IMG/VR virus record: IMGVR_UViG_3300022200_000056
Span: 1-55,201 of that record
Length of the DNA: 55,201 bases
Source: a virus
Lineage: Duplodnaviria; Caudoviricetes
Strand: one strand, 5' to 3'
Both the position numbers and the translations under genes were made by a program. Below the pieces are notes generated by a model. That model saw nothing but the letters and a program-made list of their open reading frames with translations. It made no database searches and was not told the origin of the DNA. Position 1 is the stretch's first letter; every line of letters starts with the position of its first letter. Positions 27,560 through 45,022 of this stretch are shown one piece after another.

Positions 27560-28014
27560 TGAGTAATCAATCAGACTACGGCACTAAAGAATTACATCGT
27601 CGTCATCTTGTAAGGCCAGAGTTCATAGGTGGTGGACACTCCATACGAGTGAGGGTAATCGATCAAAAAGTTCTAGATAACTTATTGCTTTCGAAGAAGA
27701 TTAAACTTGATCATTATCAAACGCTGGACTCCATGATGATTGAGCATTATAACTCAACAATAGGATTGCGTGCTCAAACATTTGAGCCAAAAGTAAAGGG
27801 AACATCTTCTGATTACACCGACAAATATGCGATGGCGAGAAGCAAGGTGAGAAAAGTTTTGGAAGAGGTGAGAGAAAATTTGGGGCGGGAAGTTTATAAA
27901 ATACTGAGAAGTATTCTTGAGGATGTGCCTTTGACCAAGGTTCAAATGATGTGGGTTGAGGCTAATGGAAACATGAAAAGATTGATTAATATAGTGGGGA
28001 AGTATTATGGATAG
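27559..28014 (+). CDS. Hypothetical protein, possible transcriptional regulator
   Basis: Coupled to the helicase gene; helical basic protein; function inferred from position only. Confidence 0.6.
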   Translation: MSNQSDYGTKELHRRHLVRPEFIGGGHSIRVRVIDQKVLDNLLLSKKIKLDHYQTLDSMMIEHYNSTIGLRAQTFEPKVKGTSSDYTDKYAMARSKVRKVLEEVRENLGREVYKILRSILEDVPLTKVQMMWVEANGNMKRLINIVGKYYG

Positions 28015-28318
28015 ACTTGGTAAACAAATACTTGGTGAGGCTATGGATGTGATTGATGCTAGAGGGGATCACTATGGATCTCCGTATAAGAATTGGAAAA
28101 CGATAGCGGATTTCTGGACAATTTATCTTAGAGATAAGTTGAAAGATGGGGAAAGTATATCAGCGACAGATCATGGGTTGATGATGGATCTGGTGAAAAC
28201 GGCTCGCGTTATGACTACGAATGGTCACTGGGATAGTATGCTTGATAAGTGTGGGTATGTTGCCGCAGCCGTAGAATGTTTTGAAGAAGAGAGAAAAAGG
28301 TTTGACGAGGCTGAATAA
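28007..28318 (+). CDS. DUF6378-like phage protein
   Basis: RGDHYGSPYKNWKTIADFWTIYL..MDLVKTAR..DSMLDKCGY. Confidence 0.75.
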   Translation: MDRLGKQILGEAMDVIDARGDHYGSPYKNWKTIADFWTIYLRDKLKDGESISATDHGLMMDLVKTARVMTTNGHWDSMLDKCGYVAAAVECFEEERKRFDEAE

Positions 28319-28330
28319 TATCAATAATAT
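28302..28330 (+). promoter_or_regulatory. sigma70-like promoter of candidate sRNA
   Basis: TTGACG-N17-TAATAT. Confidence 0.6.
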
Positions 28331-28336
28331 AAAACC

Positions 28337-28400
28337 TGCATGAAGGTCATGCGTTTCCTCCCAAACTAAAGGGGGCGGCTAATCACCGCCCCCTTCTTTT
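28337..28400 (+). ncRNA. Candidate sRNA with anti-SD loop (CCUCCC)
   Basis: GCAUGA/UCAUGC hairpin, GUUU-CCUCCC-AAAC hairpin, then terminator; no ORF. Confidence 0.55.
28369..28400 (+). terminator. Intrinsic terminator
   Basis: AAGGGGGCGG-ctaatca-CCGCCCCCTT followed by CTTTT. Confidence 0.85.
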
Positions 28401-28431
28401 ATGTGTTAGAATTACACAGATGTGTGTAGTT

Positions 28432-29330
28432 CTAGATGTTAGGCATCATGCTGTTGCTATCAATCGACATGTCTGCACGAGTTGATGCGCGACCGTTGAG
28501 GTAGTTGATCCATGTTCGCGCTAGCAATATTGACATCACATCTGCTGTCACCTTGTTGCGGTTAGCAACGCGGATCTCAGTAATTTTTGTCAGGAAGTAA
28601 CGCACTGGTGAGCGCACACCCTTGCCATGGTTTGACGCGAGATCGTTTAGGAACTCGCATACCTTCTCATCATCGCCGCTCTCTGCAACGATGTGAACAA
28701 CGCCGCAAGAGGCGGCACTGGGATCAATGTGCTTTTCTTAGTGATCTTAGATAGCCTGATTGCTTTCTCAAGAACATTAGTGTCAACCTCATCAACGTAA
28801 AACTTGCGAAGTTCATCGTTCGTAAGGCGAACATTCTTTGTGTTTGCATGACCGCTCTTGTATGCCACGATGTGGCGAAGGACAGAGCCTGTCATCGATG
28901 GGTAAGGAACGCCCATGATGGTGAACACATCCATGTTTGAACGGTTCGCGCCGACATCCATGTGGATAAACGACTCTGGATCAATGCCAAAGATGGCGTG
29001 AGTGATGAACGGTTTGCCAGCGCGAACGCATGCGCTCAAGCGGTTCTGTCCATCCTTCAAGTAACCATCCTTGCCAAAGGCCAAAGTGGCATTAGTCAAA
29101 GACCAATTGCCGCCCAACATGTCCTTGGCGTATGTCTTAATCTTCTCCGTCTTCTTTGTACGGTTTCCGATGTTGAGGTTTTCAAGGATGTGTTCCGCCA
29201 AGAACGGTGTGACCTCAATCACACGAGAGTTCTGTGGTGGGTTCTTGATCAGTGAGTAAAGATTTTCAATCTGATCTGACGGATCGAGCGATGAGTTCAA
29301 GCCGCGCTGTTTTGAGATTACTGAAAGCAT
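28432..29330 (-). pseudogene. ParB-like / DGQHR-type protein split by a 1-nt frameshift near 28694 (pseudogene or sequencing error)
   Basis: EVTP..NR..YAKDM..G.W..DGQNRLSAC; adding one T (TTC [T]AC ATC) joins 29330-28695 to the open frame ending at 28432. Confidence 0.7.
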
Positions 29331-29480
29331 GTTGCTTTCCTTTCTCCCCCATGTCCGTTTGTCGGGGGTCTGTTGCCTTGCCCAAGGGCTTACACATGTC
29401 TCCCAATGGTGGGCAGTCCAAAGGAAACTGAAAAGTTCTATAAAACTAATTAATAAAATTAAAACTATTGGCCGTCATAA

Positions 29481-29610
29481 TATTGGTGTTGGGAAGAGCG
29501 CCACCAATAACGCTCTTCCCTGTGTGCTGGTCAGTGAGGGAAAGGAGAAACCCCGATAGGCAACACTAACCTAAACGCCTACACACATGCGTTAACCAAC
29601 CCTATCGGGG
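29481..29610 (-). ncRNA. Candidate structured RNA with anti-SD loop and downstream 10-bp hairpin
   Basis: Nested stems UGUGUGU/GCACACA and GGUUAGUG/CACUGACC around loop UUUCUCCUUU; GGGAAGAGCG/CGCUCUUCCC hairpin. Confidence 0.4.
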
Positions 29611-29850
29611 TAACTGGTTGTCAAATCTAATGTGCGGCTCATCACAAATCAATGTGATCTTTGGATTATTCTTCCATGAACCGAAGAAATTTTCAACACG
29701 ATAATGCAAGTCAGAGTGGTTTGCATCAAGGTAACTTGAACACTCCGCATGAGTTTTGAATTTAGGATCAGACCACTGAGCCTCTAACTCAGATGTCACC
29801 TCTCCGTTAAACGAAAAGGTGGTGAGAATAATAATAGCGTACTCATTCAT
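29602..29850 (-). CDS. Hypothetical protein
   Basis: ORF in leftward operon; hydrophobic N-terminus. Confidence 0.55.
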   Translation of the reverse strand: MNEYAIIILTTFSFNGEVTSELEAQWSDPKFKTHAECSSYLDANHSDLHYRVENFFGSWKNNPKITLICDEPHIRFDNQLPR

Positions 29851-30022
29851 CTCTAAACCTTCCTGATCTTGACATGGCATATGCAGATGTAATCATCATA
29901 AGCATGCCAATAAGCATAACAAGACAACCCAGCACAAGGCTATAGGTGTCTGGCAATTCAGCGACAGACATCCCTGCTTGTATAACGAGCAGAGAGGATA
30001 CAAAAATTATAGGCCAGATCAT
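29843..30022 (-). CDS. Small 2-TM membrane protein
   Basis: AAGGAG RBS; two hydrophobic helices. Confidence 0.6.
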   Translation of the reverse strand: MIWPIIFVSSLLVIQAGMSVAELPDTYSLVLGCLVMLIGMLMMITSAYAMSRSGRFRDE

Positions 30023-30032
30023 TTCATTCTCC

Positions 30033-30314
30033 TTATGATTTAAGTGATGCGCGACCACAGTGTGGGCATTCATGTAACATCATGTCTACATGGTATTGGA
30101 ATGTGTCCTCATCCATAAACTCATACGGCGAGTGGCTTGCTGAGAACATGGGCGCGATCACACCGTAATCGCCGCTCAGTTTTGTTTCCTCATAGCAGTC
30201 ATGAAATACCTTGCGGTTTTCCAAAGCGCCCTCAGCGTCATAGTAATCATCAACATGTGGCAGATACCTTATGCCACGGTATGAATATTCAGGTGCGTTA
30301 TCCCAACTAATCAT
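30033..30314 (-). CDS. Hypothetical protein with C-terminal CPHCG
   Basis: AAGGAG RBS; 93 aa. Confidence 0.6.
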   Translation of the reverse strand: MISWDNAPEYSYRGIRYLPHVDDYYDAEGALENRKVFHDCYEETKLSGDYGVIAPMFSASHSPYEFMDEDTFQYHVDMMLHECPHCGRASLKS

Positions 30315-30324
30315 GATTATCTCC

Positions 30325-31110
30325 TTATAGATTGTCGAGCAGTGTGCCCAAGACGAACGCCTTGGTTCTGCGGTTTAGTAATTCAATGGCAGACTGAAGG
30401 TTTTTTGAGTATGCATGAACCTTCTGCGTCTCGCCTTTATCTGACAACAAGTCAGTGCTATCATGGTTATGCACCACAAGCCATCCGATTTGGACATCAG
30501 GCACACTCTTTTTCCAAGTGACCGTCTTTACCTTGAAGGCAGTGGCAGTCTCTGGCAGTGCATCGAAAATTATGTCTGCCTTTTTTGCATGCATAACAAA
30601 CCTCTTGCCTGATCCTGACATCAGCATAGCAAGACCTTCTAAGAACACGTTGCGATACCAAGTCAACTTTAGACCCACACGATTAGTACATGTGTAATCG
30701 CTAGTTTTCTCATGCTCAATATATGTGTCCTTTGCATTGGATTCCACCACCCCAAGACCCATGCACCGTATGTAATTATCCGACAGAACACGTTGTGCAA
30801 GTGCGAAGGTTAGGTCTGCATGTTTTTTCATTGGGTTGAAGGTATTCTTTGATGTCTTTGCATTGGCAAATTGGCGATAGTCTCTAACCTGATTGACCAT
30901 ACTCTGCATGTACTTAACCACAGCACTCTCAACACCGAAGCAATGTTCATCAAAGAATTTATCAACATCAACGCTGATGTCAAATTTGCTTCTCCCCCTG
31001 AGGATTAGGCAAACCAAATCGTTTGGCATCTCCCAAGTTTTTGCCATGTCATTGATTGCCTTCTTACACTGCATCGCAGATAGATAATTCTTTTTTAATT
31101 GTTCATTCAT
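30325..31110 (-). CDS. Hypothetical protein
   Basis: Long ORF with GGAGA RBS. Confidence 0.7.
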   Translation of the reverse strand: MNEQLKKNYLSAMQCKKAINDMAKTWEMPNDLVCLILRGRSKFDISVDVDKFFDEHCFGVESAVVKYMQSMVNQVRDYRQFANAKTSKNTFNPMKKHADLTFALAQRVLSDNYIRCMGLGVVESNAKDTYIEHEKTSDYTCTNRVGLKLTWYRNVFLEGLAMLMSGSGKRFVMHAKKADIIFDALPETATAFKVKTVTWKKSVPDVQIGWLVVHNHDSTDLLSDKGETQKVHAYSKNLQSAIELLNRRTKAFVLGTLLDNL

Positions 31111-31146
31111 TGTAGTCTCCAATCATAAGAGGTTAAGATGGCGGCA

Positions 31147-32274
31147 CTATGCCGCCACCTGTATTCTTGTTGTTTCACCGATGGGTGCATCATTGCAATC
31201 CATATCGGTTGATACCCATAGCACTGGGTAATCTGGTGTTTCATTCGGATAGTCGAAGATGCCCATGTCAGTCAGGTAAACCATAGCATCGCATGGTATC
31301 TGATTGTCATAGACATAATCGAATACAGGCATGACGCGAGTGCCGCCTCTACCCTTGGCCTCGACACCGTTGATGTACTCGCCTTGAGCATACTCAGTCA
31401 CAGACTGAACCTCAGCATCGCAGACGATCAATGTGATAGAGCGCGGATTAAAATCCTCAATCAACTGGTTGAAGACACCAAGGAAATATTCCTGCTCACG
31501 CATCGATACACTGCCACTGCTATCCCAGCCCAGCACGATGTCACCGACACCGACACGATCAACTGCTGGCATGTATATGCCTTGGGTGTAGTACACTTTG
31601 CGATTGCACCGCCGCCATGTGTAATCTTCTGGCTGATCACCGCCAACAAATCTGCGGATCACATCCATCCAATCAACTTGAGAACGCCGCATGCGCGACA
31701 CCATCTCTTTAATCTTAGATGGTAGTTTGCCAGCGTTCTCAGCCGCCTGTGCCGCCATGAAGACACGCTGGTCTACATCTGCCGCCATCTGCTCCAGATC
31801 GCCCTGAGAGGGCTGTGAGCCGTCTTCATTGGATGCATCCATGACGATGCCCCATGATGGCTGATCCGCGCCGCCATCAGACTGAGGCAACAGGTCAAAT
31901 ATTTTCTCTGCCGCCATGCCTTTGTACTGCTCACTGAACAGGCCATCTTCTGGCAGGACAAAGCCGCCATCGGTGAGGATGTCATTGATGGCGTAGTCGG
32001 TGGCGATGTTCCATTTTTTATGATCACGATCACCGCGCCGCAGATGATGTTTCATCACGATGTGCATGACCTCATGAGCGATTACGCCCTTGATCTCATC
32101 CTCACTGTGACGGTCAACGAAGGGCTCTGCCCAGATGATCTTCTTGCCATCGGTTGCCATCGTCTCGATGCTATCATCTTGTACAAAATGACATCCAAGT
32201 GCGATGCTACCGAAGAAGGGGTGCTTGACCATTAGACTGGTCTTGCACCGTGCAATTTTTAGATTAGCATCCAT
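31147..32274 (-). CDS. Metallopeptidase-VWA protein (DUF2201-like)
   Basis: TMATDG, HEVMH, WNIATDYAIN, MIDAS DSSGS, GRGGT, YLTD. Confidence 0.9.
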   Translation of the reverse strand: MDANLKIARCKTSLMVKHPFFGSIALGCHFVQDDSIETMATDGKKIIWAEPFVDRHSEDEIKGVIAHEVMHIVMKHHLRRGDRDHKKWNIATDYAINDILTDGGFVLPEDGLFSEQYKGMAAEKIFDLLPQSDGGADQPSWGIVMDASNEDGSQPSQGDLEQMAADVDQRVFMAAQAAENAGKLPSKIKEMVSRMRRSQVDWMDVIRRFVGGDQPEDYTWRRCNRKVYYTQGIYMPAVDRVGVGDIVLGWDSSGSVSMREQEYFLGVFNQLIEDFNPRSITLIVCDAEVQSVTEYAQGEYINGVEAKGRGGTRVMPVFDYVYDNQIPCDAMVYLTDMGIFDYPNETPDYPVLWVSTDMDCNDAPIGETTRIQVAA

Positions 32275-32304
32275 GCTAGTCTCCATAAAAAAGTTCTATA
32301 TAAC

Positions 32305-33321
32305 TTACACAAGGGTAAGCGCGGAACCGTTGGTCAACGCCCACTGGCGAAGAGCCTCAACCTTTTTCAATTCAGGATCACGGCTCACCGCATCCTTGAT
32401 GACGAAGGCAGAAAATTCTTGCTGAGGCAGACGATTGAGGTATGCGATGATCTTGCCAAGGTTGGTTTGATTTGCCTTAAATGCCAGACCAGCACAGATT
32501 GCGTATGTCACCGCAGGATCTTCACTGATCATTGCAATCTCAGGATTAGCAATCAACTCATCGAGATCTGGACAGGTGTCATAGATCTTGAGAAACCCAA
32601 GAAAATCTGCACAGGCAGGACGCCCTACCTGACCAGCGATTGCCTCAGTCTGGCAGACTGCATCCAGCCCCCATCCCATGACAGATGACACCCTATCCCA
32701 TGATCGTGGCGATGGCGATGCATTGGCATCACGATCAAATTTATGTAACCATTCTGGGCGAAAGCGCAGGAACGCACAAATGCGTTGATCGACACCAACC
32801 TTATTGAAGTAGCCGATGGCATCCTCAAGGTCAGCCTCGATCTCCAAGAACATCAGGCGATCTTTAAGATGCGATGGCATGGTGTTTGTACCAGCGCGGT
32901 CACTGGTGCGATTGCCAGCCGCCACGATAGCCCAGCCATCAGGCAGACGGTGCTGACCGACACGCCGCTCATTGACGATTTGTGCGGCGATGTTCTGGTT
33001 GGCGACTGGTGCTTGAGGCAATTCATCCAAGAAGAGGATGCCCTCACCTTCCGAAGGCATCCAGTCTGGGCGAAGGCGTTTCATACCATCACCATCATTG
33101 ACCAGCCATCCTGCAAGTTCGCCAGCATCATACTGAGCAAGCGAAACGACAAGACACTGAACATCACGGCTTTTGGCGATGTCCTGAACAACGGTTGTTT
33201 TACCAAGACCAGCACCGCCGATCAGGTATGGGATTGGACGCATTGCATCGCGGCCTTGGGCGTTGGTGATTTGGCTGTCGATTGAAGCCTCGACAATGGC
33301 TTTTGATTGAGTAAGACGCAT
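32305..33321 (-). CDS. MoxR-like AAA+ ATPase
   Basis: Walker A GGAGLGKT, Walker B LFLDE, AAGNR, SPRSW; paired with VWA gene. Confidence 0.9.
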   Translation of the reverse strand: MRLTQSKAIVEASIDSQITNAQGRDAMRPIPYLIGGAGLGKTTVVQDIAKSRDVQCLVVSLAQYDAGELAGWLVNDGDGMKRLRPDWMPSEGEGILFLDELPQAPVANQNIAAQIVNERRVGQHRLPDGWAIVAAGNRTSDRAGTNTMPSHLKDRLMFLEIEADLEDAIGYFNKVGVDQRICAFLRFRPEWLHKFDRDANASPSPRSWDRVSSVMGWGLDAVCQTEAIAGQVGRPACADFLGFLKIYDTCPDLDELIANPEIAMISEDPAVTYAICAGLAFKANQTNLGKIIAYLNRLPQQEFSAFVIKDAVSRDPELKKVEALRQWALTNGSALTLV

Positions 33322-33353
33322 AACTTTTCTCCTTGTTTGCGTTGGTTATATGG

Positions 33354-33418
33354 CGAGATGCCACGACACCCCCGAAGGGGTGTTTCGACAGTTTCTCATG
33401 CTGTCATCGTCAGGTAGC
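33354..33418 (-). ncRNA. Hammerhead ribozyme, type I
   Basis: GCUAC-CUGACGA-U-GACAG(CAUGAGAAA)CUGUC-GAAA-CACCCC(UUCG)GGGGUG-UC^GUGGC; loop II UGAGA can pair with downstream UCUCG. Confidence 0.9.
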
Positions 33419-33419
33419 G

Positions 33420-34085
33420 TTATGCGGCATCAAGTGCGCCCAGCACCTTGTCCACAACTTCATTTTCAGATGCGGCATCAGCCATAGCCTTTGCCGCCGC
33501 ATCATCTGATGCAAGCCGTGCGGCCTTCAACTCGCGGCACGCATCATCGAACTCAGCCCAATCCATCGCATCGTATTTGGATGGCTTGAATGAACCAGTT
33601 ACGGTTTCTTTGCCGAACAACTTTTCTGCCAGTTTAAACATCTCAGATTTGCCAGCGTCACCATCGACAGCATCCATGAGTTTTTTCTCGCTATCAATTT
33701 CATGATCATCAAACACTGCCCTGACCATTTCGGGCGTTACGTTGTCGCCGCCAATGCCCAACTTGTGGCGAGCCTTGACGCTGTTCTCTTTCAGTTTCTT
33801 GGCGGTGGCTGGCTTGATGTATGCACCCAACTCTTCGCTCAGTTGTTTAGACACTGTGGCAGGAAGGCGTTTGTTCTTGCCATTGCCAACCAACCCGACT
33901 GGCGAGATCGCCACGATCAGGCTGACGTACTGGTTAATCTTATGGGCATTCATCTGCTGGGTGTTCGCGTTGTTCTCCATGGTGCGTGCCTTGTTCTCGC
34001 CGCGCAAATTAGCAATGGATGCCTCAGCATTGGCAATGTCTGCCATGGTGTTGTCGAAATTTTGAGTGTTAAAAATGTCCTGCAT
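33420..34085 (-). CDS. Hypothetical early protein
   Basis: AGGAGA RBS; 221 aa, Ala/Asp-rich helical. Confidence 0.75.
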   Translation of the reverse strand: MQDIFNTQNFDNTMADIANAEASIANLRGENKARTMENNANTQQMNAHKINQYVSLIVAISPVGLVGNGKNKRLPATVSKQLSEELGAYIKPATAKKLKENSVKARHKLGIGGDNVTPEMVRAVFDDHEIDSEKKLMDAVDGDAGKSEMFKLAEKLFGKETVTGSFKPSKYDAMDWAEFDDACRELKAARLASDDAAAKAMADAASENEVVDKVLGALDAA

Positions 34086-34117
34086 AATAGTCTCCTGTGA
34101 ATTGCAGTTGGTTGGTG

Positions 34118-34285
34118 TTATTTCCAGATCACTTCAATTTGTGAAGTTTTCTCATCGGTCTTCCATTCGCCGATAGGCTTGCGTGACATGGTGCAGAACA
34201 CCTTGCCAGCGCGGTCACCTACGACCTTTTCGAAACGATCAATTTCATTAAGAAAATCGTTAAATGTTTTGAAGATCTCTTTCAT
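34118..34285 (-). CDS. Small hypothetical protein (55 aa, not in ORF track)
   Basis: MKEIFKTFNDFLNEIDRFEKVVGDRAGKVFCTMSRKPIGEWKTDEKTSQIEVIWK with GGAGA RBS. Confidence 0.65.
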   Translation of the reverse strand: MKEIFKTFNDFLNEIDRFEKVVGDRAGKVFCTMSRKPIGEWKTDEKTSQIEVIWK

Positions 34286-34287
34286 GG

Positions 34288-34491
34288 TTATTCTCCCTTG
34301 AACTCAAAACGCTGGTCAAAATATGCAGGGTTGTCAGAGCATGCGATAGCATCCTTAACCTGTTGGACATTCATCCATCCGCACATTGCCATCTCGAAGG
34401 CATCATCGAAGTTGATGAAACCAAGATTAGCCAAGGTCTTCAGTGCCTCGCGGCGGATAGGTGTGAGTTTAGCATCTGCAATTTTAGACAT
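34288..34491 (-). CDS. Small hypothetical protein, first gene of leftward operon
   Basis: AGGAGA RBS overlapping hammerhead stem III; 67 aa. Confidence 0.7.
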   Translation of the reverse strand: MSKIADAKLTPIRREALKTLANLGFINFDDAFEMAMCGWMNVQQVKDAIACSDNPAYFDQRFEFKGE

Positions 34492-34499
34492 CGTTGTCT

Positions 34500-34549
34500 C
34501 CTGTTTCGTGGTTACTCTTCAGCATGGCGTACCAATCGCCATGGACAGG
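34500..34549 (-). ncRNA. Hammerhead ribozyme, type III
   Basis: CCUG-UC^CAUGGCG(AUUGGUA)CGCCAUG-CUGAAGA-GU(AACC)AC-GAAA-CAGG; complete core and complementary loops. Confidence 0.88.
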
Positions 34550-34550
34550 G

Positions 34551-34783
34551 GGGCAAGTTACCCTGCCCCGAACCCAGCCGCAGGAACTCACGCCCCTGCC
34601 AGATTTACCGCCCCACAAGCGCGAGCGCATCACTGCGGTCACACCCGATCTGTATCTCGAACTGCCCCATCGCAAGCGCGACAGGTGGGCTGGGTGACAT
34701 CGCCTCACCACTCCGTGAGGTAGAAGATCTGGGGCTGGTTACCAGAATGCCGAAGGTTGCCAAATCAGGGGCTGTGAACCCCT
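34551..34783 (-). ncRNA. Large unclassified structured RNA (multi-junction, GNRA loops)
   Basis: About nine nested or adjacent helices, GUGA x2 and GUAA tetraloops, G-U pairs favour the minus strand, no credible ORF. Confidence 0.65.
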
Positions 34784-35103
34784 TTGTCATATAGCCGCAG
34801 ATGGTTGTCAACCCCCCCTAATGGCTTTTTTTGGTCATTAATGGATATGTGTGACATATATGCAACAGTTAAAGGTCGAAATCGTCACTGGCGGCTTCTG
34901 GAAGATAGCCGTGTGTGATTATAAGCCAGAATACCTAAAGGCGCTCAGTGAGGCTTAAAACGCCAGTAATCGGCATTATTGGTTATTCTTTGCCAGTGTT
35001 GTTTCGGGGACGTAAATGGTAAAGTTATATAGAACAATTGAACGGCGAGACCAAAACCACGCCCAAGCGCAAGCGCATACTGGCGGCACACAGGGAATAC
35101 ATA

Positions 35104-35574
35104 ATGGGTAGAGATAAAGACAAAGATAAGATCATTAAACTAGTACCAGCATCGGATGGCCTCACTAGCAAACAGGAAACCTTCGCCAAGTTGGTAAGTG
35201 AGGGGCAGACACTCACTGATGCCTATCGATCAGCGTACAGCGCAGAAAAGATGAAGGATAGTTCAGTATGGGTTGAAGCATGCAAGTTGAGGCAACACCC
35301 CAAGGTGTCCCAAAGGATAGAGGCGTTATCAGGTGAGATCACCGCACGTCAGGCATCTGAAGACGAACGGCTCAGGATATTTGTGACTGAACAGTTGAAG
35401 CATGAGGCTTTGGGTGCAGGATCAGACAGCGCAAGGGTTCAGGCACTGGTGGCATTGGGCAGATCGGTGGCAATGTTCAGTGACAAGGTTATCGAAGAGG
35501 ACAGCACACACCGCACAGCGTCTGAGATTGAGGCTGAGATCCAAGATCGCCTGTCGCGACTGCTTGGTTCCTGA
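35104..35574 (+). CDS. terS: Terminase small subunit
   Basis: LTSKQETFAKLV..TDAYRSAY..ACKLRQHPKVSQRI..ARVQALVALGR. Confidence 0.8.
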   Translation: MGRDKDKDKIIKLVPASDGLTSKQETFAKLVSEGQTLTDAYRSAYSAEKMKDSSVWVEACKLRQHPKVSQRIEALSGEITARQASEDERLRIFVTEQLKHEALGAGSDSARVQALVALGRSVAMFSDKVIEEDSTHRTASEIEAEIQDRLSRLLGS

Positions 35575-35688
35575 TCTGTCTGGGGGTGGACACAGCGCAT
35601 TCCGCACTGGCTTGACCCCCACCCCACCCCATCCCCCCTGTATGGCGCGGCGCATACAACACACTATACACTGTGAAATGCACAACCA

Positions 35689-35898
35689 ATGAGTATCCTA
35701 GAAAATCTAGACATCTGCCAAGGTAATTGCATCTTAGATGATGAGAAATGTATAATTTGCTGTAGGTCCTTTCATGAAATAGCCGTGTGGGACGATTTAA
35801 CGCCCTCTGAGAGGGATTGGATGACTACTATGGTGCAGGGTAGGCAGGATAGACTCTGGACGCTCTGGTGGGGCTCTGAGAGCGTTTTAAAGAATTAG
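35689..35898 (+). CDS. DUF1289-like Cys-rich protein
   Basis: CQGNCILDDEKCIICCRSFHEIAVW..SER. Confidence 0.7.
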   Translation: MSILENLDICQGNCILDDEKCIICCRSFHEIAVWDDLTPSERDWMTTMVQGRQDRLWTLWWGSESVLKN

Positions 35899-35998
35899 CA
35901 TAATTTAATAGTTCTCTAGAACTTTTACCCCCCCCTATTCTTAAAAATTATTTTGCTAGTTATAATTTTAGGGAAGGGGTTCTTTCTAGGAAAGTACC

Positions 35999-36232
35999 CT
36001 AGGAATCCTGTGCCCCCACGTTGGCACCGTACATCTGTAAGGTTTCCCAGCCATCTTCTAGCTCTTCTTCAGGGGGCGGCTTTAGGTTTTCCTTGGCATA
36101 TTCCACGCCAGCCTTTATTGCGTGGTAAATTCCGGAAGATATCATGGCGGATTTTACCTTATCGCACATATCTATCGTGACCGTGGCGCTACCGTCTTCG
36201 TGCTCAACAACATCAACAACTTCTATTTTCAT
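35999..36232 (-). CDS. Small hypothetical protein
   Basis: MKIEVVDVVEHEDGSATV motif; GGGAG RBS. Confidence 0.6.
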   Translation of the reverse strand: MKIEVVDVVEHEDGSATVTIDMCDKVKSAMISSGIYHAIKAGVEYAKENLKPPPEEELEDGWETLQMYGANVGAQDS

Positions 36233-44524: not shown

Positions 44525-44593
44525 GTGTATAATGTATAAGAACCTTGACAGCCGCATGGTGTGGCTGACATTAGCCAAGACAAGGAGTTCCTC

Positions 44594-45022
44594 ATGGCTA
44601 CCACAACTTTTTCCGGTCCTATTAAAGCAGGATCGATCCGCGAAGGCGCATCTGCGAATGTCGGCTTCGTAAAAATGGCTCAAACTGCATCTTGGACTCA
44701 GTCTACAACCGCAGCTGATACAGGTATTACAATCCCTGCTAATAGCCAAATCACTGAAATTTCAATCTACATCACAACGGCTCCCGCTACTTCCAACATT
44801 AGTATGGGTACAAGCTCAACTTCTACTGAGCTGTTTACTGCTCTTGCCTCTGGCACAGCTGCAAATGTAATCCTGCATGGCTCTGACGGCACTATTACAG
44901 ATGCAGATACTTGGGCTGATATTGGTTCCTCGGATGTTAGTATCTTTATTGACTTTTCCGCTGGTTCAACGGGTGCTGGCTATGTGACTGTAGAATACAT
45001 TCAAAACATTAATAACGCCTAA
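44594..45022 (+). CDS. Virion structural protein
   Basis: AAGGAG RBS; MATTTFSGPIKAG start; Thr/Ser-rich. Confidence 0.7.
   Translation: MATTTFSGPIKAGSIREGASANVGFVKMAQTASWTQSTTAADTGITIPANSQITEISIYITTAPATSNISMGTSSTSTELFTALASGTAANVILHGSDGTITDADTWADIGSSDVSIFIDFSAGSTGAGYVTVEYIQNINNA

What the first reader, a model, noticed from the sequence alone, without database searches (positions are those of the whole stretch)
34551..34783. Unclassified ~230-nt multi-helix RNA at the start of the early transcript
Seen by manual folding of the minus strand: CCAGCC(34738-33)/GGCUGG(34579-74); CCAGAU(34732-27)/AUCUGG(34604-599); CAGGGGC-GUGA-GUUCCUG completing a tight three-way junction; CCUCAC/GUGAGG; GUCAC/GUGAC; CCUGUCGC-GCUU-GCGAUGGG; CGCA-GUGA-UGCG; CUCGC-GCUU-GUGGG; GGGGCAGG-GUAA-CUUGCCCC; and a 5' AGGGGU/GCCCCU hairpin. 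It has three GNRA tetraloops, two near-identical UCGC-GCUU-G(C/U)G hairpins, and many G-U pairs that work only on this strand. I cannot match it to tRNA, tmRNA, SRP, RNase P or an intron. Inference: a novel ncRNA released with a defined 3' end by the hammerhead. Possible roles are anti-defence decoy, protein sponge, put-like antiterminator or new ribozyme.
Basis: partly seen in the sequence, partly recalled or inferred. Interest (0 to 1): 0.85.

Follow-up and report, generated by a model that had tools for sequence, protein, structure and literature searches.

The report
Conserved phage leader RNA before hammerhead
This stretch is a real folded non-coding RNA at the head of a marine phage's early genes; a few related phages share it, a self-cutting ribozyme follows it, it matches no catalogued RNA family, and its function is unknown.

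Summary
The window is a 55-kb uncultured marine phage contig. The target lies on the minus strand between the divergent small-terminase gene and the first early gene.

- **No known family:** Rfam 15 and ARAGORN find nothing here.
- **Family size:** a covariance model built here finds the core (34734-34564) in 13 contigs, with 6 distinct sequences in 3 lineages.
- **Helices supported:** four helices survive with compensatory changes. These are P1, a long-range P2 (34695-88 with 34579-72), a variable-length P3, and P5 with a variable tip. 147 of 150 pair cells are canonical, and 10 of 25 pairs changed on both sides.
the two outer long-range helices and GUCAC/GUGAC are not supported. None of the GNRA loops is conserved outside the window's lineage.
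- **Not coding:** the segments between conserved blocks differ by lengths that break reading frame.
- **3' end:** the RNA is always followed by an end-defining element. There are three different hammerhead variants, or in one lineage an A-tract, GC hairpin and U-rich tail. The downstream genes differ.

Related phages carry other structured leaders in the same slot. Earlier notes of this scan describe hammerhead-ended early leaders in other phages. Expression, ends and function were not shown.

The parts
34788..34811 (-). Promoter-like element: TTGACA (34811-34806), a 12-nt spacer, then TATATG (34793-34788). It implies a transcript start near 34785.
   Evidence: Read. L043 and L049 carry a similar GGTTGnnn-N14-TATATA element at the same place before the shared 5' motif. 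The sigma-70 scan did not flag it and the spacer is short. This is an inference.
34756..34783 (-). 5' module M1. It holds a lineage-specific hairpin AGGGG/CCCCU (34783-79 with 34771-67) and the conserved string CAGCCCCUGAUUUGGCAAC (34774-34756).
   Evidence: The motif CAG(G/C)CCCUG-N2-5-G(G/C)CA(A/C) occurs at the start of the leader in window-type, L043-type, L117-type, L046, L049 and L010/L011/L013/L014/L015. There were only 2 unrelated hits in 2.1 Mb of loci.
34728..34746 (-). P0 local hairpin: UCUGG (34746-42) pairs with CCAGA (34732-28).
   Evidence: The positional equivalents in L117 and L134 are GUCGG/CCGGC, and in L049 GGUUGG/CCAGCC (read by eye). Two positions changed on both sides. 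Support is moderate.
34703..34720 (-). P1 hairpin: CCUCAC (34720-15), loop GGAGUG, GUGAGG (34708-03).
   Evidence: Lineages 2 and 3 have CCCCAC/GCGGGG, with one A.C mismatch. L044 has an unrelated but paired CUGGGU/ACCCGG.
34696..34702 (-). J1/2, a conserved single-stranded stretch: CGAUGUC (CGGUGUC in the other lineages).
34688..34695 (-). P2 5' strand, ACCCAGCC. It pairs with 34579-34572.
   Evidence: All 8 pairs are canonical in 6 of 6 sequences. Positions 4-6 are C-G, A-U, G-C in the window and U-A, C-G, U-A in lineages 2 and 3. RNAalifold recovers the helix independently.
34666..34685 (-). P3 hairpin: CCUGUCGC-GCUU-GCGAUGGG.
   Evidence: The domain is 20, 19, 39, 39, 70 and 38 nt long in the six variants, and the outer 6 pairs are always canonical. 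Three of those six pairs changed on both sides.
34609..34665 (-). J3/4 (GCAG) and the variable middle. It holds the conserved UGAUGCG and lineage-specific hairpins (CGCA-GUGA-UGCG and CUCGC-GCUU-GUGGG in the window).
   Evidence: The middle is 57, 57, 58, 58, 58 and 45 nt long. I found no helix common to all three lineages.
34599..34608 (-). J4/5, a conserved single-stranded stretch: GUAAAUCUGG (GUAAGUCUGG elsewhere).
   Evidence: Nine of its 10 positions are invariant in all six variants; the fifth is A or G.
34581..34598 (-). P5 hairpin: CAGGGGC-GUGA-GUUCCUG.
   Evidence: The base CAGGG/UUCCUG is invariant. The tip makes the hairpin 18, 20, 27, 27, 27 and 24 nt long and stays self-complementary.
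34572..34579 (-). P2 3' strand, GGCUGGGU.
   Evidence: See the P2 5' strand.
34550..34569 (-). Optional 3' hairpin: GGGGCAGG-GUAA-CUUGCCCC.
   Evidence: It is present in the window and L005 and absent in L117, where the hammerhead follows GGUU directly. Lineage 2 has A8-9 followed by a longer GC hairpin at this place.
34500..34549 (-). Type III hammerhead. The predicted cut lies after C34544.
   Evidence: The core reads CCUGUC | stem I | CUGAAGA | GUAACCAC | GAAACAGG. The same variant occurs in 13 of 15 loci, with stems I and III covarying. It falls below Rfam thresholds.
34288..34491 (-). First early ORF, 67 aa, with no family match.
   Evidence: It is absent from L005, where the same leader precedes the window's second gene.

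Best explanation
The stretch is the core of a modular, non-coding 5' leader RNA of the phage's leftward early and replication operon.

**Layout.** A short 5' module is shared with other leader types in related phages. It is followed by a core of about 165 nt (34734-34564), which forms hairpin P1 and then a junction closed by the long-range helix P2. That junction carries P3, a variable middle and P5. The junction strands are strictly conserved: CG(A/G)UGUC, GCAG, UGAUGCG, GUAA(A/G)UCUGG.

**Inferred processing.** The hammerhead that follows cuts after C34544. This would free a leader RNA of about 240 nt ending in a 2',3'-cyclic phosphate. It would also leave an mRNA with a 5'-OH and only about 50 nt before the start codon.

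**Inferred role.** The RNA keeps a defined 3' end by three different hammerheads or by a terminator-like hairpin, while the gene behind it changes. I therefore read it as working at the level of the operon or the cell, not on one particular gene. My preferred mechanism is a leader-derived stable RNA whose conserved junction binds a protein or small molecule. I hold this at roughly 40% among the functional options.

**Shown versus inferred.** The structure and its conservation are shown. Cleavage, release and the binding role are inferred.
For: **No known family or coding signal**
- No Rfam family, tRNA or tmRNA is found.
- PHROGs finds nothing for the two overlapping minus-strand ORFs.

**Family**
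- Model R1 scores 124-217 bits on 13 contigs in 3 lineages.
- It found no other full-length hit at E <= 10 in the 131 sources, nor at the tighter cut-offs used for the 165 sources.

**Covariation**
- On the model-fitted alignment, 95.6% of cells are paired, against 44-56% when partners are slid. Seven pairs changed on both sides, against 0-2 when slid. The covariation score was reached by 0 of 500 shuffles.
- On my anchor-based alignment, 147 of 150 cells are canonical and 10 of 25 pairs changed on both sides.
- RNAalifold recovers P1, P2, P3 and P5 on its own, with a structure conservation index of 0.60.

**Non-coding pattern of change**
- P3, P5 and the middle differ by lengths that are not multiples of 3, including 1- and 2-nt indels between the window and the 96%-identical L005.

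**Defined 3' end, variable cargo**
- Hammerheads follow the core in the window, L005 and L117. A hairpin follows in L043, L134 and L044. The first genes differ.

**Published context**
- Hammerheads that flank genes in phage transcripts, and pseudoknots between their loops I and II, are described in PMC3088659 (passages read).
Against: - **Small sample:** there are only 6 distinct sequences and about 3 independent lineages. The compensatory changes trace to few events, and the structure was derived from the same sequences. The tool warns that both inflate its controls.
- **Weak folding energy:** z-scores are -1.5 to -2.0.
- **Start not shown:** no promoter was flagged at the inferred start.
- **Hammerhead below threshold:** the window's hammerhead is below every Rfam hammerhead threshold. 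L117's reaches 17.8 bits against a cut-off of 37.
- **Terminator not flagged:** the lineage-2 hairpin was not flagged by the terminator scan.
- **No partner gene:** no protein cluster in the fetched flanks is specific to phages with this RNA.
- **No direct evidence:** nothing here shows expression, cleavage or binding.
Confidence: 0.7

Rival explanations
1. The RNA is a cis-acting sensor or attenuator, either riboswitch-like or protein-binding. Its junction would bind a ligand during transcription and decide whether RNA polymerase reads on into the early genes, or whether the hammerhead or ribosome-binding site becomes active. The leader would then simply be discarded.
For: - It always lies between the promoter region and the first gene.
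- Its junction strands are strictly conserved.
- In lineage 2 the core is followed by A8-9, an 11-bp GC hairpin and a U-rich tail, with only about 45 nt and no promoter-like site before the ATG. Read-through seems to be required there.
- In L117, P2 ends 1 nt before hammerhead stem III.
Against: - I found no alternative pairing, such as an antiterminator or anti-hammerhead, conserved across lineages.
- The hairpin is separated from P2 by 12-14 nt and was not flagged as a terminator.
- The downstream genes differ and suggest no ligand.
- The RNA matches no known riboswitch in Rfam.
Confidence: 0.2
2. The RNA is a put-like processive antiterminator. It would bind the transcribing RNA polymerase and make it resistant to terminators throughout the early operon.
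For: - Its position right after the early promoter, and ahead of a terminator-like hairpin in lineage 2, matches the HK022 put arrangement. That arrangement is recalled from memory, not from any call.
- 13 terminator-like sites were found in 28000-35100, against 6.1 +/- 2.9 in shuffles. Most lie inside genes or on the other strand.
Against: - In three variants a hammerhead would cut the tether between the RNA and the polymerase.
- The RNA is far larger than put and has no sequence relation to it.
- No intergenic terminators are evident in the window's early operon.
Confidence: 0.07
3. The stretch is an ordinary GC-rich 5' UTR with no specific function. On this view the conservation reflects recent common descent, and the hairpins only stabilise the RNA or are incidental.
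For: - Folding z-scores are weak.
- The family is small.
- Half of the window's hairpins are lineage-specific.
Against: - P2 and P3 keep pairing through changes on both sides between lineages whose terminases are only 48% identical.
- Junction strands are invariant while hairpin tips turn over freely.
- L044 replaced P1 with an unrelated hairpin at the same place.
Confidence: 0.08
4. The stretch is a small protein-coding gene, or a DNA-level site such as a pac site, origin or operator.
For: - ORFs of 68 and 75 aa on the minus strand, and of 141 and 143 aa on the plus strand, overlap it.
- It lies beside the small-terminase gene, where pac sites often lie. That point is recalled, not from a call.
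Against: - No PHROG matches the two minus-strand ORFs.
- Open frames are expected by chance at this GC content, and the open frame changes between the window and L005.
- Lengths between conserved blocks are not multiples of 3.
- The G-U pairs would be A.C on the other strand, and the compensatory pattern fits a single-stranded fold.
Confidence: 0.04

Closest known systems
Hammerhead ribozymes flanking genes in phage and prophage transcripts (Perreault et al. 2011, PMC3088659; passages read)
   Same: A hammerhead with a loop I / loop II pseudoknot sits in a polycistronic phage transcript just before a gene. A second hammerhead-core match lies further down the operon, at about 33382-33413.
   Different: That work concerns the ribozymes and the cutting of mRNA into pieces. 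In the passages I read it does not describe a conserved structured RNA domain upstream of the first ribozyme.
Leader-derived phage regulatory RNAs: P4 CI RNA and the P1/P7 C4 antisense RNA (recalled from memory; no paper read)
   Same: A small stable RNA is carved out of the leader of an early or immunity operon and acts at the level of the operon.
   Different: Those RNAs are about 70-80 nt, are processed by host RNase P, act by antisense pairing and belong to temperate elements. This RNA has a core of about 165 nt and a ribozyme or hairpin sets its end. I found no antisense target. No integrase or repressor turned up among the 19 window proteins scanned. Rfam's library, which I recall includes a C4 family, gives no match.
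HK022 putL/putR antiterminator RNAs (recalled from memory)
   Same: A structured RNA sits immediately downstream of an early promoter and upstream of a terminator-like hairpin (lineage 2).
   Different: put consists of two stem-loops of about 70 nt and must stay on the polymerase. This RNA is a multi-helix junction that a hammerhead cuts off in three variants. No homology was tested, because no put model was available.
Orphan structured RNA motifs of phages and metagenomes, such as Mu-gpT-DE (RF03012, also present in this window) and the motif lists of Weinberg et al. 2010 and 2017 (search listing only)
   Same: It is a conserved, covarying RNA motif found only in uncultured phage sequence, with no known function.
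   Different: It is a different sequence and fold, and it reaches no Rfam family's threshold.

Membership tests
Any Rfam 15 family | A covariance-model score at or above the family's gathering threshold | tested here: not met
   On the whole window at gathering thresholds, the only hit is Mu-gpT-DE at 44543-44596. On 34200-35200 at E <= 10 there are three chance-level hits of 13-15 bits. The homologs L117 and L043 share no hit with each other or with the window.
tRNA / tmRNA | Cloverleaf or tmRNA architecture detectable by ARAGORN | tested here: not met
   ARAGORN finds 0 genes in the window.
Hammerhead ribozyme, type III (the element 3' of the target, 34549-34500) | Conserved core (CUGANGA, GAAA, cleavage after a UH triplet) and three stems that covary | tested here: met
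   The core is read directly. Of the 15 loci with the same variant, 13 (9 distinct sequences) show stems I and III that differ but stay paired. Self-cleavage was not tested.
Hammerhead ribozyme, type III (the element 3' of the target) | A score above the Rfam hammerhead gathering threshold | tested here: not met
   No hammerhead family scores at E <= 10 in the window. L117's hammerhead reaches 17.8 bits against a cut-off of 37 for Hammerhead_II. Stem II is only 2 bp long.
Riboswitch | A ligand-binding aptamer coupled to an expression platform with mutually exclusive folds | tested here: inconclusive
   Conserved junctions are compatible with an aptamer. I found no conserved alternative pairing, and ligand binding cannot be tested with these tools.
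put-like processive antiterminator | The RNA acts in cis on RNA polymerase to suppress downstream terminators | not testable with these tools
   There is only positional resemblance.
Protein-coding gene | A reading frame conserved among homologs | tested here: not met
   There are frame-breaking indels between the window and L005. Segment lengths are not multiples of 3. The open frame shifts between variants.

The most novel reading that the evidence does not exclude
This is one cassette of a previously undescribed system. In this reading, marine phages related to the HTVC023P-type pelagiphages begin their early transcript with interchangeable structured RNA cassettes of 200-400 nt. At least four unrelated cores were seen, with a common 5' motif seen on three of them. 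A built-in hammerhead frees each cassette as a stand-alone RNA. The conserved four-way-junction core found here would then act in trans in the first minutes of infection. It could be a decoy or sponge for a host defence or RNA-binding protein, or a sensor of a host metabolite. That would be analogous to protein anti-defence islands, but made of RNA.
Probability: 0.2. Interest if true: 0.8.

Novelty: new variant of a known kind. Interest (0 to 1): 0.55.

Why it matters
- **A recurring design:** structured RNAs at the very start of phage early transcripts are poorly catalogued. If this leader is freed by its hammerhead, it suggests the ribozyme does more than chop an operon into pieces: it would manufacture a defined non-coding RNA.
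- **A testable object:** the family gives a compact core of about 165 nt with clear helices and invariant junctions. It is suited to self-cleavage assays, probing and pull-downs.
- **A variable slot:** several unrelated leader cores occupy the same slot in sister phages. Rapid turnover of this kind is typical of host-interaction functions.
- **Limit:** the family is small and uncultured, so the finding is a lead, not a demonstrated mechanism.

Tried and rejected
**Searches that found no homolog**
- BLAST of the region and of the L117 homolog against 50,697 GenBank phage records gave no match.
- Model R1 finds nothing in the nearest cultured relatives by large terminase (about 56% aa identity), Pelagibacter phage HTVC027P and phage 023Pt_psg01. 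The tool notes that an empty answer shows nothing.

**Collection scans that were chance or wasted**
- The pattern scan of genome contigs returned 120 loci, about what chance predicts by my own rough estimate. R1 confirmed none.
- L190, with two pattern matches, is a repeated coding segment.
- L255 is a chance match inside a gene.
- The pattern was mis-specified by me (five N where three were needed). Its 18 hits are chance, which wasted a scan. The corrected pattern found only known members plus chance hits.
- The metagenome scan with the terminase alignment added only L043 and L044 as members.

**Transcriptome data**
- Three aquatic metatranscriptome runs hold 8-19% of the sampled words of 33000-36000.
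- Their contigs lie on neighbouring coding sequence only. None lies on 34313-35019.

**Relation to the other leader types**
- Group B leaders are not detected by R1. Beyond a short 'UUCUACC + hairpin' resemblance (nhmmer E about 1), I could not show homology.

**Structure details left open**
- I tried to define a common helix in the middle region (P4) and a GNRA hairpin at GUAA in J4/5. Neither is consistent across lineages.
- A long-range pairing of J4/5 UCUGG with 5' CAGGC or CCAGAU is possible in each lineage. The partners are not at homologous positions, and by my estimate a 6-bp match in about 90 nt is expected by chance roughly once in four. I left it open.

**Protein partner**
- I looked for a protein gene specific to phages with this RNA and found none in the fetched flanks.

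**Literature**
- Two full-text searches found no description of such a leader RNA.
- These searches cover only the held library, and supplements were not opened.

**Correction**
- The correct count is 20 of 43.
Full report
**Context.** The window is a single IMG/VR virus contig of 55,201 nt, estimated 93% complete. The target lies on the minus strand in a 546-nt gap. On one side is a plus-strand small-terminase gene (35038-35574, phrog_51). On the other is the first minus-strand ORF (34491-34288, 67 aa, no family). Further downstream on that strand are a 221-aa protein, a MoxR-type ATPase and a protein labelled HNH endonuclease. Elsewhere the contig encodes a primase-helicase, an exonuclease, a Sak-like annealing protein and structural genes. 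No integrase or repressor was found among the 19 proteins scanned. The closest cultured phages by large terminase are Pelagibacter phages HTVC027P and HTVC023P and two uncultured marine phages, at about 52-57% aa identity.

**Checking the observation.**
- Folding energy alone is unimpressive. The z-score is -1.89 for 34551-34783, with 10 of 200 shuffles folding as well. It is -2.02 with the hammerhead included.
- Rfam 15 gives nothing for the region at gathering thresholds.
- A permissive search of 34200-35200 gives only chance-level snoRNA and miRNA hits.
- ARAGORN finds no tRNA or tmRNA.

**The element just 3' of the target.** It reads as a type III hammerhead: CCUGUC | CAUGGCG-AUUGGUA-CGCCAUG | CUGAAGA | GUAACCAC | GAAACAGG.
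- Stem II has only 2 bp, and a 4-bp UGGU/ACCA pairing is possible between loops I and II.
- A pattern for this variant found 15 viral loci. Thirteen of them (9 distinct sequences) carry the same loop motifs, with stems I and III that differ but stay paired. Each lies 10-25 nt before an ATG with a purine-rich ribosome-binding site.
- The other two, L026 and L028, lack stem I and look like chance matches.
- Hammerheads that flank genes in phage transcripts, and loop I / loop II pseudoknots, are described by Perreault et al. 2011 (PMC3088659; passages read).

**Finding homologs.**
- Close copies: the same RNA at 99.5% identity lies on one other contig (L002, L003 and L027 are the same contig). 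A 96% copy lies on another (L005 = L130).
- First distant homolog: the terminase alignment run against metagenome contigs gave 80 loci. nhmmer then picked out L043, at the equivalent position upstream of a terminase only 48% identical.
- Further homologs: a pattern built from the two conserved strings around P5 fetched more viral contigs. nhmmer linked L117/L118/L119, L120/L121/L122 (scores identical to L043), L134 and L044/L125.
- Model search: R1, built on five sequences, scores these at 124-217 bits and the window at 165 bits (34734-34564).
- Model search, misses: it found no other full-length hit in the remaining sources. These were 131 sources at E <= 10, 138 at E <= 0.01 and 27 at E <= 1.
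- Family as found: 13 contigs (11 viral including the window, 2 metagenomic), 6 distinct core sequences, 3 lineages.
  - Lineage 1: window, L027, L005.
  - Lineage 2: L043, L134, L044.
  - Lineage 3: L117.

**The fold that the homologs support.**
- **P1:** the hairpin CCUCAC/GUGAGG becomes CCCCAC/GCGGGG in lineages 2 and 3, with one A.C mismatch. In L044 an unrelated hairpin, CUGGGU/ACCCGG, takes its place.
- **J1/2:** a conserved strand, CG(A/G)UGUC, follows.
- **P2:** the long-range helix ACCCAGCC (34695-88) with GGCUGGGU (34579-72) becomes ACCUCUCC/GGAGAGGU elsewhere. Three adjacent pairs changed on both sides, and all 48 cells are canonical.
- **P3:** the domain ranges from 19 to 70 nt. 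Its six outer pairs are always canonical, and three changed on both sides.
- **J3/4 and middle:** after an invariant GCAG comes a variable middle of 45-58 nt. Only UGAUGCG is shared there.
- **J4/5:** a near-invariant GUAA(A/G)UCUGG follows.
- **P5:** the base CAGGG/UUCCUG is invariant. The tip differs in every lineage, giving 18-27 nt, but stays paired. This includes a reshaped tip in the 96%-identical L005.
- **Totals:** 147 of 150 cells are canonical. Of 25 pairs, 10 changed on both sides, 3 on one side and 12 are invariant.
- **Tool count on the model-fitted alignment:** 95.6% of cells are paired, against 44-56% with slid partners. Seven pairs changed on both sides, against 0-2 when slid, and 3 of 500 shuffles reached that number. 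None of 500 reached the covariation score.
- **Independent prediction:** RNAalifold on my anchor-based alignment recovers P1, P2, P3 and P5, with a structure conservation index of 0.60.
- **Caveats:** there are few lineages, the structure was derived from these same sequences, and one alignment was fitted to the model.

- Three of the ten helices are confirmed: P1, P3 and P5.
- Four are real in the window but optional in the family.
- Three are not supported.
  - The outer CCAGCC (34738-33)/GGCUGG has no counterpart elsewhere, whereas the P2 partner at 34695-88 covaries.
  - CCAGAU/AUCUGG (34604-599) is better explained by a local hairpin, UCUGG (34746-42) with CCAGA (34732-28). Its equivalents are GUCGG/CCGGC in L117 and L134 and GGUUGG/CCAGCC in L049.
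  - GUCAC/GUGAC finds only 4-nt partners in lineages 2 and 3.
- None of the three GNRA loops is conserved outside the window's lineage.

**Coding and DNA-level alternatives.**
- Long open frames occur on several frames of every GC-rich homolog, and the frame that stays open changes between the window and L005.
- Lengths between conserved blocks differ by amounts that are not multiples of three, including 1- and 2-nt indels at 96% identity.
- The two overlapping minus-strand ORFs match no PHROG.
- G-U pairs in P3 and P5 would be A.C on the other strand.
- I therefore reject both a protein-coding reading and a duplex-DNA site.

**The 3' end and the cargo.**
- In the window the core is followed by an extra hairpin and then the hammerhead.
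- In L005 the identical leader runs to the same CCUGUC. A different hammerhead variant follows, and then the window's second gene. The 67-aa gene is missing, so the mosaic joint lies at the cleavage site.
- In L117 a third hammerhead variant follows GGUU directly.
- In lineage 2 there is no hammerhead. Instead there are A8-9, an 11-bp GC hairpin and UAUUCAUUU, then about 45 nt to the ATG. This looks like a terminator to me, but the scan did not flag it.
- The first genes differ among lineages.
- No protein cluster in the fetched flanks is specific to phages with this RNA.
- An end-defining element is thus the constant companion of the core, and no particular gene is.

**The slot is modular.**
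- Terminase relatives at 53-62% identity (L004, L007, L008, L009, L035-L037, L039, L040, L042) carry a different conserved leader of about 230 nt at the same place, also ending in a hammerhead. RNAalifold predicts 26 pairs for it, 8 with compensatory change.
- L046 and L049 carry a third core, and L010/L011/L013-L015 a fourth. Both begin with the same 5' motif as the window, CAG(G/C)CCCUG-N-G(G/C)CA.
- In the window, L043 and L049 that motif follows a promoter-like GGTTGnnn-N12-14-TATAT(G/A). This is my only basis for placing the transcript start near 34785, and the promoter scan did not flag it.
- A crude hammerhead-core expression matches the early strand within 1.6 kb of the terminase gene in 20 of 43 related loci. 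This is a regular expression only, not validated.

**Mechanism.**
- Shown: a conserved, non-coding, strand-specific fold with invariant junction strands, placed at the head of the early operon and followed by a hammerhead or hairpin.
- Inferred: the hammerhead cuts after C34544 and frees a leader RNA of about 240 nt. The released RNA, or the nascent leader, binds something through its junction.
- I favour a leader-derived stable RNA acting beyond a single gene. The reasons are that selection keeps a defined 3' end by different means while the cargo changes, and that the slot turns over between unrelated cores as host-interaction loci do.
- A cis attenuator or sensor is the main rival and fits lineage 2 best.
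- A put-like antiterminator fits the position, but a ribozyme that severs the tether fits it poorly.

**What is known, and novelty.**
- No Rfam family matches in the window or in two homologs.
- Two full-text searches found no description of such a leader.
- Comparisons with P4 CI RNA, P1 C4 and HK022 put rest on my memory of those systems.
- Earlier AI notes of this scan report 'early-operon leader RNA ending in a hammerhead' in other phages. A look-up by sequence found no look-alike in other windows. The architecture therefore recurs, while this family is new to the scan.

**Verdict.** This is a real, small, undescribed RNA family.

Noticed in passing
L004 2165-2425, L007 800-1050, L008 2267-2517, L009 2219-2436 and six more loci (minus strand of each locus): A second, unrelated conserved leader RNA ('group B', about 230 nt) occupies the same slot in sister phages and also ends in a hammerhead. 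RNAalifold predicts 26 pairs, 8 with compensatory change. An invariant CGCUAC at its 5' end can pair across the hammerhead cleavage site GUCGC.
   Followed up: partly
window 34756-34774 (-); L046, L049, L010, L011, L013, L014, L015, L043, L117: The 5' motif CAG(G/C)CCCUG-N2-5-G(G/C)CA(A/C) begins leaders whose cores are otherwise unrelated. In the window, L043 and L049 it follows a promoter-like GGTTGnnn-N12-14-TATAT(G/A). It could be a conserved transcript start or a factor-binding site.
   Followed up: partly
window 34500-34549 (-); L019-L033: A hammerhead variant with loop I AUUGGUA and a 2-bp stem II (GUAACCA) recurs in 13 of 15 fetched viral loci, just before ribosome-binding sites. It scores below every Rfam hammerhead threshold, so standard annotation would miss it.
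   Followed up: partly
window about 33382-33413 (-): A second hammerhead-core pattern lies between the 221-aa gene and the MoxR-type ATPase gene (L001 403-434). Related loci show up to four such matches along the early operon.
   Followed up: no
L005 2432-2510 (-): The 96%-identical leader is joined, exactly at the hammerhead cleavage site, to a different hammerhead variant. That variant's core reads UUGAAGAG, with U where C3 is usual, and it carries an inserted hairpin. The window's second gene follows, and the 67-aa first gene is absent.
   Followed up: partly
window 44543-44596 (+): There is a full-length Mu-gpT-DE RNA (RF03012) at 67.8 bits. It is the only Rfam hit at gathering threshold in the window.
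   Followed up: no
L004 about 2690-2960, L007 about 1240-1265, L008 about 2715-2740 (intergenic, beside the terminase gene): The perfect palindrome TTGTTTGTACACAAACAA, and variants of it, are repeated in the divergent promoter region of group B phages. The window has ATATGTCACACATAT at about 34844-34858 instead. These are probably operator sites.
   Followed up: no
L190 2514-2548 and 3240-3274 (-): The two matches to the P5 pattern in an Acidiferrobacteraceae MAG are a repeated coding segment, not RNA homologs.
   Followed up: yes
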